A stretch of DNA of 64,000 nt from contig CP068257.2 in the NCBI GenBank assembly GCA_009914755.4, forward strand, positions 16,064,001-16,128,000. The letters run 5' to 3'. The stretch's first letter is position 1. Every line of letters starts with the position of its first letter. A program made the position numbers and the translations under genes. Source of the DNA: the human T2T-CHM13v2.0 reference genome, Homo sapiens. The notes beneath the pieces were generated by a model. It was not told where the DNA came from and made no database searches. It was given only the letters and a program-made list of their open reading frames with translations. Positions 34,905 to 54,745 of the stretch are shown one piece after another.

Positions 34905-35660
34905 GTAACAATCAACAGTCCTATAACAAAAACAGGTTTACAAGAGAAAAGCATAACAAATTTATTTAACCCAAGTTTTATGTGACACAGGACACTTCAG
35001 AAATGATGACTCATTGAGCTGGGGAAAATGGCCTACTTTTATGCTTAGGTTTGATGAAGAATGGACAGCCACGTAGAAATGTGATTGAACAAAAAGAGTA
35101 CATCTAGTGGTAATAGACTGAGAGAGGAAACATAGCAAGATCTGTCTGTTCAGATTCTTCTAGATGTCTCTGGGTAGCATTTCCCCTGAACCCCACTGTA
35201 TGGGGCAGAACTCCTCTGGAATGAGGGTCTTCAAGGAAGAAAGGAGAAGGCAGAGAGTAACCTTTCTGGGTTTTATGGTTTGCTTTGAAGAGAGGTTCTA
35301 GTTTCTATGACACACCTTAAGTAAGAGAAAAATCCTGGGGTTGGTGTGATGGCTCATGCTTGTAATCCCAACACTTTGGGAGGCTAAGGCAGGAGGATCA
35401 CTTGAGGCCAATAGTTTAGAACCAGCCGAGCAACATGGTGAGATCCTTTCTCTATTTAAGTATATTTTTTAAAATTAAAGATTAAAAAAAGGAAAGAGGA
35501 ATTCTGGTTTCTATTACTTGCTTTGAAGCAGAAAGAGGGATGGGAGACAGGAGGTCAGAGAGATTTTTGGTTCTGCGCTGCTTCTGAGGTCTTTCCATTT
35601 TCTTTAGTTCAAAGTACTCAGCATACCACAATGCCATACTTTGGGGCATCATTGTCTGAG
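34905..35660 (-). mobile_element. Unnamed LTR-like repeat, copy A (a FLAM-type Alu monomer is inserted at 35337-35450, + strand)
   Basis: Shares an alignable 600-bp-scale sequence with copies B-E (for example tttatgcttaggtttgatgaagaatggacagccacgtagaaatgtgattgaacaaaaagagta ... ggttctagtttctatgacacacc ... ggtctttccattttctttagttcaaagtactcagcataccacaatgccatactttggggcat). I could not assign a family name; see the finding. Confidence 0.55.
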
Positions 35661-37025
35661 TTTGCGAAATAGTATAGCAATCAACTCAAAAGTAAAACAC
35701 AAGGTTCGGTCGACTGGCATTTGAGTAGCCCTGTCCCATGTTTACAAAAGTGTTGGAATTCTAGAATTTTGCCAAAGGATACTCATGTGACAAATGCAGA
35801 ATCAAGATGACTGGGAATAATTTTCAGTTTGACCTTTCCCTTTTACCACTCCCATCTCTAAAACACACACATTTGGAAAGCAGATTTAGAAATATTCAAT
35901 GTTTTGTCAGGTTATCTATGCTTAAAAATTTATTTTTAAAGGAAATGTTGTCTATTGAGCCTGAATCACTATGCTCTTCAGGAATTTAGTAAGAAGTAAT
36001 TGGATGTGAAACAGAAGGTACAGGTGGTTGGGGAGTTCCTGTGACTTCAGGAATGAAGATGAATTTCATTAATTAAAATGAAATACTCAAAGTGGAAATC
36101 ACACAGGAAATAAATTGTTAGAGGAAATAGAAACTTCTTTGGTAAGAATTAAGTGATTAAGTGACTGAAAATGGTCTATCATATAACCATATAATTATAT
36201 GGATATTTTTTCTTTGATGAAAGGAAAACTGGTGATTTGGGGACTAAAAATGGGGGAACAGAGTGGGGAGAACAAGCTAGGTATAGGAAGGATTTTTATT
36301 CTGCAGCCAAAATCTTCCAATTGATGCCTTATCCTTTTGAAAGAATTATGAGGATTACATTTTCTCTAAAAGATGAAGTTTCAGTACATGATTCATGTCT
36401 TTTACTATTCGACTTTTACACTCTAAATTTATTCACTTAATAAAAGCAGCTCTACAGAAGGGTACCTTCAAAAGTATCAGGAGAATTATAAGTAGCAAGA
36501 AGATGGGACAAACTGAGAAGAAGCAGGGCAGGGAGGGAACGAGAGGAGCTGAGTGCAGAAAAGAAATTACTTCTTAGTACAGAAACGTCTGTTCACAGAA
36601 GAGAAAAAAGCGGGAGGGGCACCAAGCTTACAGAAAGGAAATCAAAGTCAAAATACCATGCCAAGCTAAAGAGAAGGCATGATTCAGAATCCAGGAAACT
36701 AAGTCTGGATTTAATGAATTTAATTTTCAAAGATTCAAGTGTGTATCAAGAGACTCCCACAGAAAAAGGCCAGGAAGGGTAACCAGAATTCCAGGCTAGC
36801 AGAACTCAGTTCCAATTATGGAGTGCCTGAAAAACACACCATGGGCCAAAAACTCTTCTGGGTTCATAGTGCAGAAGACACAGTCAGAGAGGTAAGTTGG
36901 CATGTGTGGGTGTCTAAAGGTTTAAGTGACAGAAGGGACAAACAGGCTAAGGTGTGAGTAGGCGGAGGGGAAGAAAATATCTCTTTTTCTACTCATCTTA
37001 GGTTCATGGGTGAGGCCCCTATAAG

Positions 37026-37700
37026 GCCCTTGGCTCCAAAAAGTTTTGCTGAAAATTATCAACATAAGGCAAATTGATTAATAAAAGAAAAGGCATACAA
37101 ATTTATTTAACATGTATACAAGAGAGCTTTCAGAATGAAGACCAAAAGATACAGAAGAAATTGTCCATTTTTACGCTTAGGTTTAACAAATTATGGACAG
37201 CCATACAGAAACAGGATGGAACAAAAAGAGTAGATTCTAATGTTAGTAGACAGAGCAGAAAACCCGGCAAGCCCTGTATAGATTCTTCTCAGCCTCTCTG
37301 AGCAAGCATTCCGTTCTTCTCAGTATGGGGAAGGGCCCTCTCTGGAATGGGATCTTATGACCTACAGTCAAACAAGGTAGGTCAGATAGTTTCTTTATGG
37401 CTAGTTTTACATAGAAAGGTGGAGGGAATATTAGAATAATAGTTTTAGGTTTTATGACTAATTTGGGGGAGAAGGGTTCTGGTTCTAAGACCCACCGGAA
37501 GGACGAAGGATTCTAGTTTCTATGGCTAGCCTTGGGAAAGAATGGGACTGAGAGATAGCAGGGCAGGAGAAGGTCAGAGAAAAACTTGCCTCTGAGGCTG
37601 CTGCTGAGGCCTTCATTTTGGGCTGTTGTTTTCTGATCCACAACATTCCCCATTGTGAAACTTTCCCAAGAAGTTTCATAGTTCAGAAATAGAGTTGCTG
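37026..37700 (-). mobile_element. Unnamed LTR-like repeat, copy B
   Basis: ttggctccaaaaagttttgctgaaaattatcaacataaggcaaattgattaataaaagaaaaggcatacaaatttatttaac ... cagaatgaagaccaaaagatacagaagaaattgtccatttttacgcttaggtttaacaaattatggacagccatacagaaac ... ggttctggttctaagacccaccggaaggacgaaggattctagtttctatggctagccttgggaaagaatgggactgagagatagcagggcaggagaaggtcagagaaaaacttgcctctgaggctgctgctgaggcc. This is about 85% identical to copy C1. Confidence 0.55.
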
Positions 37701-53600: not shown

Positions 53601-53714
53601 TTGATCGATTCTTTTTTTGTGTCCTTGAGAGGGTTTTAAAATTGTCTACCTTTAGCTCTTGTTCATTTCTTATTAAGATAATTTCTAAGTATTCTATAAT
53701 TTTTGTTGCTATTG

Positions 53715-54745
53715 CTGGGGCTTGGAATGCAATACCCCATAGTATGGCACCTTGGCAGGCTGAATACTTTGGACTGAAGGAAATTGGAAAGGCCTCAGAA
53801 GCAAGCTCTTTCTGACCTTCTCCCATCCTCCTGTTCCTCTGTCTCCCCTAAATCTAAGTGAGTCTTAAAAACCAGAATTCCTCTTCCCCAAGGTAGGTCA
53901 TAAAAACTTGAACCCCTCTACCCCAAATCAAATCATAAAACCTATAAATGTCACACTCTCCCTTCTCCCTTAAGACCCTTATTAGATGCAGGTCCTCCCC
54001 TATATCTGGGAAAAAGGCATCCTTCACAGAGAAATCAAGAAGTATCTGAACAGAGAGGCCTGCTGGTGTCCCCCCTGCTGTGGTTTGGATATGGTTTGTT
54101 TGGCCCCACTGAGTCTTATGTTGAAATTTGATTCCAATGTTGCAAGTGGGGTGTGGTAAGAGATGTTTGGGCCATGAGGGTGGATCCCTCATGAGTGACT
54201 TGGTTCCATTCTCACAGGAGTGAGTTCTCACTCTTAGCTCCCAAAACAACTGTTTGTTGAAAAGAGCCTGATACCGCCTCCTCTCTCCCTCTTGCTTCCT
54301 GTCCTGGTGTGTGACCTCTGTACACTTCGGGTTCCCTTTGCCTTCTGCCGTGAGTAGAAGCAGCCTGACGCTCTTGCCAGAGCAGATGCTAGTGCTATGC
54401 TTCTGGCATGGCCAGCAGAACTGTGAGCCACATTTTCTTTATAAATTACCCAGCCTCAGGTATTTCTTTATTGCAACACAAATGAATTAAGGCACCCTCT
54501 CATTCTATTACCATTGGATCGTGTCCATTGTCTAATCACATTTCTCCACAGCTGTCCACTCTTCATTGGACCTAAGCCCTGGGTCTTTGGGTCTTCAATT
54601 CTGAAGTTTCCTGTGTTACCTAAAACTTCGGTTAAATACATTTGTTATGCTTTTCTCTTGTTAACCTGCCTTTTGTTAGAGGAGTGTCAGCTGTGACCCT
54701 TATGATGGGTGAGAAAATGTATCACATCTTTCTGACCCTACACTA
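53715..54745 (+). mobile_element. Unnamed LTR-like repeat, copy E (tggggcttggaatgc ... ccctacacta), interrupted at 54076-54491 by an MST-type MaLR LTR
   Basis: Colinear with copy D on both sides of the insertion (gaaaggcctcagaagcaagctctttctgaccttctcc ... ccaaggtaggtcataaaaacttgaacccctctaccccaaatcaaatcataaaacctataaatgtcac ... cagagaaatcaagaagtatctgaacagagaggcctgctgg || cattctattaccattggatcgtgtccattgtctaatcacatttctccacagctgtccactcttcattggacctaagccctgggtctttgggtcttcaattctgaag ... tgttatgcttttctcttgttaacctgccttttgttagaggagtgtcagctgtga...gggtgagaaaatgtatcacatctttctgaccctacacta). Confidence 0.55.
54076..54491 (+). mobile_element. MST/THE1-type MaLR solo LTR nested in copy E
   Basis: tgctgtggtttggatatggtttgtttggccccactgagtcttatgttgaaatttgattccaatgttgcaagtggggtgtggtaagagatgtttgggccatgagggtggatccctcatgagtgacttggttccattctcacaggagtgagttctcactcttagctcc ... 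gaactgtgagccacattttctttataaattacccagcctcaggtatttctttattgcaacacaaatgaattaa. Confidence 0.75.

What the first reader, a model, noticed from the sequence alone, without database searches (positions are those of the whole stretch)
34905..54745. Six clustered copies of one unnamed roughly 620-bp TG...CA-bounded LTR-like repeat within 20 kb, four on the minus strand and two on the plus strand
Copies A (34905-35660), B (37026-37700), C1 (39426-41320 after removing four Alus), C2 (41320-41660, abutting C1), D (48943-49554) and E (53715-54745 after removing an MST LTR) are mutually alignable at roughly 80-85%, and D/E are the reverse complement of A-C. Features:
- Termini tggga/tgggg ... ctacaaca/ctacacta.
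- An AATAAA-containing segment (gattaataaaag).
- Internal roughly 40-bp tandem sub-repeats (ggttctggtttctaagacc... / ggattctagtttctatggctag... ; ccaaggtaggtcataaaaacttgaacccctctacc / ccaaatcaaatcataaaacctataaatgtcac).

These are what one expects of a retroviral LTR (U3 enhancer repeats, R/U5 poly-A signal), but I cannot match it to a family from memory. Two sub-variants exist (A/C2/D/E share the ...tttccattttctttagttcaaagtactcagcatacc... end; B/C1 share ...gaggccttcattttgggctgttgttttctga...). Six copies of a moderately old, apparently low-copy family in 20 kb is far more than random dispersal predicts. This suggests local tandem or inverted segmental duplication that predates the Alu insertions (the nested Alus differ between copies), or repeated LTR-LTR recombination products of one or more proviruses (B to C1 are same-strand and 1.7 kb apart; A to B 1.4 kb).
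Basis: seen in the sequence. Interest (0 to 1): 0.5.

Follow-up and report, generated by a model that had tools for sequence, protein, structure and literature searches.

The report
Cluster of ancient retroviral LTR remnants
This 20-kb stretch of primate DNA holds seven decayed copies of one old endogenous-retrovirus LTR family; most look like separate ancient insertions rather than local duplications, which makes it an ordinary, if unusually dense, patch of genomic fossils.

Summary
The repeat is real. Self-comparison finds all six copies only inside 34.8-54.8 kb, and a profile search adds a probable seventh, more diverged copy at about 42200-42751 (-).

The unit is about 620 bp and runs TGTT...CCCTACA. 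It has a 35-bp tandem repeat upstream, then a CCAAT motif, a TATA-like motif and a sense-strand AATAAA. An unlinked full-length copy (L004) and copy E each have a perfect 4-bp target-site duplication. That is the anatomy of a class I (ERV1-type) retroviral LTR.

Local duplication is not supported:
- No flank or spacer homology exists between copies.
- A, D and E are no closer to each other (72-74%) than to the unlinked copy (75-77%).
- At least three sub-variants are present (A/D/E, B/C1, and C2 and F apart from both). The first two carry diagnostic segments shared with unlinked copies.

A C1-to-B provirus remains possible. I found no primer-binding site, no gag/pol/env signal and no matching duplication to support it.

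The family name could not be checked because no Dfam or RepeatMasker library was available. Why the copies cluster is unexplained; an ancient integration hotspot is my inference. Interest is low.

The parts
34856..35671 (-). Copy A. Full-length LTR of the A/D/E type, with a later Alu-monomer plus A-rich insert at about 35320-35490. Candidate 4-bp duplication ATAC/CTAC (3 of 4 bases match).
   Evidence: nhmmer profile positions 3-628 match 35667-34857, E=1.4e-170. Alignments. K2P distance to the consensus 0.154.
36955..37645 (-). Copy B. LTR of the B/C1 type. The 5' end is TGTTGTGG at 37645. The 3' end is about 55-70 nt further than first drawn and uncertain by about 10 nt. No matching duplication was found.
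   Evidence: The 3' extension is homologous to the 3' end of E (z=5.4) and to the stretch after C1 (0 of 500 shuffles reach the score).
38490..38710 (.). Segment X, a repeated sequence inside the B-to-C1 spacer. It is 73% identical to a stretch of metagenome contig L007, which also carries an LTR of this family. L007 is chimeric, so the linkage and orientation are unreliable. Identity unknown.
39303..41319 (-). Copy C1. LTR of the B/C1 type, interrupted by four Alus (39495-39784, 39907-40532 holding two, and 40836-41144). The 5' end TGTTAGGG at 41319 abuts C2. The 3' end is approximate.
41320..41692 (-). Copy C2. A related LTR with its own 5' end (TGGTGGGG at 41692). It lacks the upstream repeat block and is cut off at ...TCTCTTATTAA, where C1 begins.
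   Evidence: nhmmer profile positions 170-558 match 41704-41310, E=9e-37. Alignment.
42200..42751 (-). A probable seventh, more diverged LTR. Its 5' end is TGTTGCAGCTCAGAAAATGATACCC. A co-linear 3' motif TATGCTTTTCCTTCTGTGAATCTGCC lies at 42309-42275. The 3' boundary is uncertain.
   Evidence: nhmmer E=0.056 against the whole window and 0.00096 against the local 1.1 kb, with a second co-linear weak hit. Local alignment score 59 against a shuffle maximum of 39.
48940..49562 (+). Copy D. A clean 623-bp LTR of the A/D/E type, inserted in a TG/TA simple repeat. Candidate duplication AGAT/ACAT (3 of 4 bases match).
   Evidence: nhmmer positions 3-628, E=1.5e-189. Sequence read. Sub-repeat test.
53713..54742 (+). 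Copy E. LTR of the A/D/E type, split by a roughly 420-bp MaLR-like LTR at 54076-54498. Perfect 4-bp duplication: CTAT at 53709-53712 and at 54743-54746.
   Evidence: nhmmer hits at 53713-54075 and 54495-54741. Flanks read and printed.

Best explanation
The region holds seven decayed copies of the LTR of one ancient class I (gammaretrovirus-like, ERV1-type) endogenous retrovirus lineage. They fall into at least three sub-variants: A/D/E, B/C1, and C2 and F apart from both.

Most are solo LTRs. Each came from its own germ-line integration, followed by recombination between the two LTRs that removed the internal part. This happened roughly 60-80 million years ago.

Alus, a MaLR LTR and point mutations were added later. 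C1 landed inside or directly against the older C2.

The copies are now inert sequence fossils.

Shown: homology between copies, LTR anatomy, 4-bp duplications, absence of flank homology, and no local clustering in the distance matrix.

Inferred: the age, the solo-LTR history, and the cause of the clustering. For the cause I propose repeated integration into a favoured, tolerated target region.
For: Homology and limits:
- The copies are mutually homologous and confined to 34.8-54.8 kb.

LTR anatomy, from the consensus of window and unlinked copies:
- Length about 628 nt, running TGTTGGGG...CCCCTACA.
- 35-bp tandem units at positions 153, 188 and 223.
- CCAAT at 409, CATAAAAAT at 454 and AATAAA at 528.

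Mobility signature:
- Unlinked copy L004 has a perfect AAGC/AAGC duplication.
- Copy E has a perfect CTAT/CTAT.
- D and A each match at 3 of 4 bases.
- Retroviral integrases give 4-6 bp duplications, and the gamma-like chimpanzee ERV families CERV1 and CERV2 give 4 bp with TG/CA ends (PMC4176367, PMC1779541).

Dispersed family:
- One motif scan returned eight unlinked copies from host-contaminated metagenome contigs.

Against local duplication:
- A, D and E are 72-74% identical to one another but 75-77% identical to unlinked L004.
- B and C1 share a roughly 50-nt segment and a 3'-region insertion with unlinked L002, L003, L006 and L007. A, D and E share the alternative state with L004 and L012.
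- No flank or spacer similarity exceeds shuffled controls.

Age:
- K2P distance to the consensus is 0.15-0.165 for A, D and E and 0.134 for L004.
- All copies predate the nested Alu and MaLR inserts.
Against: - The family could not be matched to a named Dfam or Repbase entry because no such library was available.
- The duplications of A and D are imperfect. Those of B, C1, C2 and F could not be recovered.
- A and E share a 7-nt 5' junction string (TTGCTAT) and similar duplications (CTAC/CTAT). Homology does not extend further.
- A duplication that happened immediately after the first insertion would be hard to tell from independent insertion by distance alone.
- The unlinked sample is small. 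It has eight contigs, two of them chimeric and two that partly duplicate each other.
- Seven copies in 20 kb needs a cause, and I can only infer one.
Confidence: 0.75

Rival explanations
1. Local tandem or inverted segmental duplication. One or two original LTR insertions were copied within the locus before the Alus arrived.
For: - Seven copies in 20 kb is far above uniform dispersal, and five lie on one strand within 8 kb.
- The nested Alus differ between copies, so any duplication would predate them.
- A and E share a short junction string and similar 4-bp flanks.
Against: - No homology exists between any flanks or between the spacers A-B, B-C1, F-C2 and the sequence downstream of D.
- A, D and E are as far from each other as from unlinked L004.
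- The sub-variants differ by insertions and deletions that are shared with unlinked copies. Local copying of one element cannot produce that.
Confidence: 0.08
2. Part of the cluster is a degraded provirus or a product of recombination between proviruses. C1 would be the 5' LTR, 37646-39302 the internal remnant and B the 3' LTR. This does not exclude the main explanation for the other copies.
For: - B and C1 are the most similar pair (78-80%), of the same sub-variant and on the same strand, about 1.65 kb apart.
- The spacer contains segment X (38490-38710), which recurs on contig L007 together with an LTR of this family.
- A purine-rich AATGGGGAA lies directly upstream of B.
Against: - Pfam finds nothing in the three sense-strand reading frames of either spacer.
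- An envelope-like peptide stitched across frameshifts gets no Pfam hit and no retroviral hit in the PDB.
- The TGG stretch after C1 scores no better against a tRNA-Phe primer-binding site than random positions in the window. It lies inside C1's own 3' region, which is homologous to B's.
- The 4-bp flanks do not match: TTAA upstream of C1, CCTA or similar downstream of B.
- Unlinked L006 is about 75% identical to both B and C1 over about 200 nt. That is not far below the B-C1 figure, so part of it may simply reflect a younger sub-variant.
- L007 is chimeric and places X in the opposite relative orientation.
Confidence: 0.3
3. The unit is not a retroviral LTR but some other interspersed or low-copy repeat that happens to start with TG and end with CA.
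For: - No linked gag, pol or env sequence and no primer-binding site were found for any copy.
- The family was not named.
Against: - Exact 4-bp duplications flank TG...CA ends in two independent copies.
- The size and internal order (repeats, CCAAT, TATA-like motif, AATAAA, about 100-nt tail) are those of an LTR.
- The copies are dispersed in the host genome.
- Solo LTRs normally lack linked coding sequence.
Confidence: 0.04

Closest known systems
Solo LTRs of old human class I (ERV1) endogenous retroviruses, that is, the Repbase/Dfam 'MER' and 'LTR' families of comparable age. The exact family was not determined.
   Same: - TG...CA ends, about 620 bp, 4-bp target-site duplication.
- Upstream tandem repeats followed by CCAAT, a TATA-like motif and AATAAA.
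- About 14% divergence from the consensus.
- Nested younger Alu and MaLR inserts, and copies dispersed through the genome.
   Different: Nothing in kind. The local density (seven copies of related sub-variants in 20 kb) is unusual. I could not attach a family name because no repeat library was available, and a recalled name would be a guess.
Chimpanzee and human gamma-like ERV families such as CERV1/PTERV1 and CERV2 (PMC1779541)
   Same: LTRs of about 400-600 bp bordered by TG/CA, with 4-bp target-site duplications.
   Different: Those families are young (97-99.7% LTR identity) and have full proviruses with a tRNA-Pro primer-binding site. Here the copies are 58-79% identical, and no internal region or primer-binding site was detected.
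MLV-type integration clustering through BET-protein tethering to enhancers and promoters (PMC4176367, PMC4121521)
   Same: It would explain several independent insertions of gamma-like retroviruses within a few kilobases.
   Different: This is an analogy for the cause of clustering only. Nothing in the sequence shows that the locus was an active enhancer or that this ERV's integrase bound BET proteins.

Membership tests
Retroviral / LTR-retrotransposon long terminal repeat | Terminal 5'-TG...CA-3' dinucleotides | tested here: met
   D runs TGTTGGGAG...TTCTACA, E runs TGCTGGGG...CCCTACA, and L004 runs TGTCAAGAC...CCCCTACA. B and C1 start with TGTTGTGG and TGTTAGGG. A's 5' TG has mutated to TA.
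Retroviral / LTR-retrotransposon long terminal repeat | Short target-site duplication flanking the element | tested here: met
   Perfect 4-bp duplications for E (CTAT) and unlinked L004 (AAGC). D and A match at 3 of 4 bases. Not recoverable for B, C1, C2 and F.
Retroviral / LTR-retrotransposon long terminal repeat | U3-R-U5 layout: enhancer repeats and promoter motifs upstream, poly-A signal near the 3' end | tested here: met
   In the consensus, 35-bp repeats lie at 153, 188 and 223, CCAAT at 409, CATAAAAAT at 454 and AATAAA at 528 of about 628. These are motif positions only. Transcription was not tested.
Retroviral / LTR-retrotransposon long terminal repeat | Association with an internal region: primer-binding site after the 5' LTR, polypurine tract before the 3' LTR, and gag/pol/env | tested here: not met
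   No Pfam hit in either spacer. No significant primer-binding-site match. The envelope-like reading was not supported. Solo LTRs are expected to lack these, so this does not exclude LTR identity.
Class I ERV (ERV1, gamma/epsilon-like) | 4-bp target-site duplication, against 5 bp for ERVL/MaLR and 6 bp for ERVK | tested here: met
   4 bp in E and L004 with the termini fixed by the multiple alignment. The link between class and duplication length rests on my own knowledge, plus PMC1779541 for CERV1 and CERV2.
Class I ERV (ERV1, gamma/epsilon-like) | Reverse transcriptase or envelope phylogeny placing the internal region in class I | not testable with these tools
   No internal coding sequence was found at this locus, and no genome assembly or Dfam internal consensus was available.
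A specific named Dfam/Repbase LTR family | Significant nhmmer or RepeatMasker match to that family's consensus | not testable with these tools
The consensus derived here can be submitted to Dfam.
Segmental (tandem or inverted) duplication | Homology extending into flanks, and copies forming a local clade | tested here: not met
   No flank or spacer homology. Window copies are no closer to each other than to unlinked L004.

The most novel reading that the evidence does not exclude
The locus records an ancient germ-line integration hotspot. Over a period long enough for the LTR to diversify into at least three sub-variants, one gamma-like retrovirus lineage hit the same roughly 20 kb seven times. 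This would be expected if its integrase was tethered to a strong regulatory element then active in germ cells or early embryos. The cluster would then be a fossil footprint of an ancient enhancer, or evidence that existing LTRs attract new insertions.
Probability: 0.25. Interest if true: 0.35.

Novelty: already known. Interest (0 to 1): 0.12.

Why it matters
It matters little for biology. The region is a normal product of ancient retroviral invasion and would be masked by any standard repeat annotation.

What this work contributes:
- It clears up a finding that looked like a local duplication.
- It supplies corrected boundaries and a seventh copy.
- It shows that same-family LTR density here is far above uniform expectation.

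If a similar density of one lineage recurs at other loci, such clusters could be used to map ancient germ-line integration preferences.

Tried and rejected
1. Primer-binding site. The TGGTGTTACAAACGGGATC stretch after C1 looked like a tRNA-Phe site. Its alignment score is no better than many random positions in the window. The stretch lies inside C1's own 3' region, which is homologous to B's. Rejected.

2. Envelope remnant. By eye, 37990-38150 (minus strand) resembled the immunosuppressive domain and CX6CC motif of a gamma-type envelope transmembrane subunit. A peptide stitched across frameshifts got no Pfam family and only chance PDB hits at E about 1. Rejected as unsupported.

3. Pfam on the three sense-strand (minus-strand) frames of 35650-37030 and 37690-39430, with stop codons replaced by X, found nothing at E up to 10. 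The first attempt failed on stop codons.

4. I tested whether the stretch after C1 is the missing 3' end of C2. It is not significant (z about 1.4).

5. I tested whether an LTR fragment precedes B as C2 precedes C1. The family profile gives no hit there.

6. Flank and spacer homology tests were all within shuffle expectation. The permissive scoring makes the long-sequence tests weak, but blastn also found nothing.

7. Scans for more copies. Viral contigs returned 0 hits. Genome contigs returned three chance bacterial hits. Only the metagenome scan was productive.

8. L013 looked closer to A (84%) than A is to D or E. It contains about 120 nt identical to A and is probably a chimeric assembly that includes this very locus, so I did not use it as independent evidence.

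9. Tandem Repeats Finder does not call the 35-bp sub-repeat even at minimum score 30. The diagonal-score test does.
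Full report
**Setting.** The window is primate-type DNA. It holds about 25 Alu-sized high-copy intervals, an SVA-like element with a 2.2-kb GC-rich VNTR, L1 pieces with an obvious ORF2 reading frame, and an LTR12-like element sitting inside an Alu. The finding concerns 34.9-54.7 kb.

- An Alu-masked self-comparison gives the same picture and no other shared sequence between those places.
- A profile HMM built from the six copies finds nothing else significant in the other 44 kb.
- Strand assignments, the four Alus in C1 and the inserted MaLR-like LTR in E are as described.

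The stated similarity is too high. Over aligned columns, B and C1 are 78-79% identical, A, D and E are 72-74% identical, and all other pairs are 58-65% identical. blastn local segments span 62-81%.

**Refined anatomy.** A MAFFT alignment of the Alu-excised copies, and then of those plus eight unlinked copies, fixes the ends of the A/D/E type at 5'-TGTTGGGG... and ...CCCCTACA-3'. The refined spans are:

| Copy | Span | Strand | Notes |
|---|---|---|---|
| B | about 36955-37645 | - | |
| C1 | about 39303-41319 | - | four Alus |
| C2 | 41320-41692 | - | cut at its 3' side by C1 |
| F | about 42200-42751 | - | new, probable |
| D | 48940-49562 | + | |
| E | 53713-54742 | + | MaLR-like insert at 54076-54498 |

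- B and C1 extend about 55-70 nt further on their 3' side than I first drew them. The stretch after B aligns to the 3' end of E (z=5.4). The stretches after B and after C1 align to each other with a score no shuffle reached (0 of 500).
- C2 has its own 5' end (TGGTGGGG). It lacks the upstream repeat block and stops at ...TCTCTTATTAA, exactly where C1 begins.
- A profile built without B, C1 and C2 picks up the seventh copy, F, on the minus strand. Its 5' end TGTTGCAGCTCAGAAAATGATACCC lies at 42751, and a co-linear 3' motif lies at 42309-42275. The local alignment score is 59 against a shuffle maximum of 39.
- Five copies therefore lie on the minus strand within 8 kb, and two lie on the plus strand 6-11 kb away.

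**What the unit is.** The consensus of window and unlinked copies is about 628 nt. Its features, in order, are:
- 35-bp tandem units starting at positions 153, 188 and 223;
- a CCAAT motif at 409, inside the best-conserved block of the family;
- a TATA-like CATAAAAAT at 454;
- AATAAA at 528, leaving a tail of about 100 nt.

The 35-bp repeat is significant in D, E and the unlinked copy L004 (offset 35; 0 of 300 shuffles reach the score). It is therefore a family feature and not a local accident. Tandem Repeats Finder misses it.

The sense-strand signal is the neighbouring AAATAAA.

With the ends fixed by the alignment, copy E is flanked by CTAT on both sides (53709-53712 and 54743-54746). The unlinked full-length copy L004 is flanked by AAGC on both sides. 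D (AGAT/ACAT) and A (ATAC/CTAC) each match at 3 of 4 bases.

TG...CA ends, a size of 400-600 bp and 4-6 bp duplications define retroviral LTRs. Four base pairs is the length reported for the gamma-like chimpanzee families CERV1 and CERV2 (PMC1779541), and integrase staggered cuts span 4-6 bp (PMC4176367). I therefore read the unit as the LTR of a class I (ERV1-type) endogenous retrovirus.

**Copies from elsewhere.** No repeat library or host genome was available. I scanned the metagenome collection for the family's most conserved block (ATCACATTTCYNCNNNGCTGTCCA).
- Fourteen contigs matched. Eight of them carry the LTR at nhmmer E-values from 1e-39 to 1e-138.
- They are short, low-coverage contigs. 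L013 carries an Alu fragment, which points to host contamination.
- None shares flanks with the window.
- Two are chimeric: L007 has a CpG-rich, bacterial-looking middle, and L013 contains about 120 nt identical to copy A.
- L002 and L012 share an identical stretch.
- I rely mainly on L004, which is full length and clean.

**Local duplication or independent insertion?** Three lines of evidence argue against duplication.
1. No pair of copies shares flanking sequence, and none of the spacers (A-B, B-C1, F-C2, downstream of D) resemble each other.
2. A, D and E are 72-74% identical to one another but 75-77% identical to the unlinked L004. They do not form a local clade.
3. The sub-variants differ by insertions and deletions that also occur in unlinked copies. 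B and C1 share the CTGACCTACCTTG...GTAGGTCATAAGA segment with L002, L003 and L007, and they share a 3'-region insertion with L006. A, D and E share the alternative state with L004 and L012. Copying one element locally cannot recreate sub-family differences that exist genome-wide.

The duplications recovered for E, D and A are not all alike. D's differs from the other two, while A's and E's differ by only one base. A and E also share a 7-nt string at the 5' junction (TTGCTAT). Homology stops there, and I treat it as coincidence or weak target preference.

**Provirus remnants?** B and C1 are the closest pair and lie on the same strand about 1.65 kb apart, so a degraded provirus is a fair idea. 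I could not support it.
- Pfam finds nothing in the three sense-strand frames of either spacer.
- A candidate tRNA-Phe primer-binding site after C1 scores no better than random window positions. It lies within C1's own 3' region.
- An envelope-like pattern I thought I saw at about 38.0-38.15 kb got no support from tblastn, Pfam or the PDB.
- The 4-bp flanks of C1 and B do not match.

One hint remains. Segment X (38490-38710) recurs at 73% identity on contig L007, which also carries an LTR of this family. That contig is chimeric, so the linkage is unreliable. I give the provirus reading about 0.3. It does not exclude the main explanation.

**Age.** K2P distance to the small-sample consensus is 0.15-0.165 for A, D and E and 0.134 for L004. 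At about 2.2e-9 substitutions per site per year, which is my assumption, this is roughly 60-75 million years. The consensus includes these copies, which biases the distance low. All copies predate the Alus and the MaLR LTR nested in them.

**Why so many here?** This is inference. I assume, generously and from my own knowledge of human ERV1 copy numbers, a super-family of 20,000 copies spread evenly over 3.1 Gb. That gives 0.13 copies expected per 20 kb and a Poisson chance of about 1e-10 per window for seven or more. Uniform dispersal therefore does not explain the cluster.

A tenfold local enrichment raises the chance to about 4e-4 per window, which is enough for a few such windows genome-wide. 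Gamma-type integrases are known to concentrate insertions near strong enhancers and promoters through BET proteins (PMC4176367, PMC4121521). Repeated hits by successive sub-variants on a favoured and tolerated target are the simplest cause. Nothing in the sequence tests this.

**Verdict.** The LTR interpretation is supported and the duplication interpretation is not. The feature is an ordinary cluster of ancient ERV1-type LTR remnants of a kind already known. Only its density is mildly notable. The family name and the cause of clustering remain open and need a repeat library and the reference genome.

Noticed in passing
window 43260-43323 (+) and 48482-48545 (-): A 64-bp inverted duplicate, 94% identical, brackets about 5.2 kb that contains an L1 with a well-preserved ORF2 on the minus strand (43.6-46.6 kb). 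This orientation is not that of a target-site duplication. It may mark an inversion breakpoint or a rearrangement associated with the L1. The LTR copies lie outside it.
   Followed up: partly
window ~9500-12420 (-): An SVA-like composite element in antisense orientation. It has a 2.2-kb, 77% GC VNTR of 37-50-bp units at 10184-12420, with a SINE-R-like part just before it. This explains the GC spike in the composition profile.
   Followed up: partly
window 52006-53591: An LTR12-like element (about 52090-53510, with 41-bp internal tandem repeats at 52669-52836) is inserted inside an Alu, whose two halves are at 52006-52085 and 53514-53591. The family name is from memory and was not tested.
   Followed up: no
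window 38490-38710; L007 820-1035: A roughly 220-bp repeated sequence of unknown identity lies between copies B and C1. It recurs at 73% identity on a chimeric metagenome contig that also carries an LTR of the same family. It could be ERV-internal sequence or an unrelated old repeat.
   Followed up: partly
L002-L004, L006, L007, L011-L013 (metagenome contigs): Public metagenome assemblies contain primate host DNA with this LTR family. Some contigs are human-bacterial chimeras: L007 has a CpG-rich, bacterial-looking 505-810 between two human pieces, and L013 includes about 120 nt identical to copy A of this window.
   Followed up: partly
window 35672-35680 and 53703-53712: Copies A and E share the 7-nt string TTGCTAT at the 5' junction and have similar 4-bp flanks (CTAC/CTAT). 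No further flank homology exists. This is either coincidence or a weak integration-site preference.
   Followed up: yes
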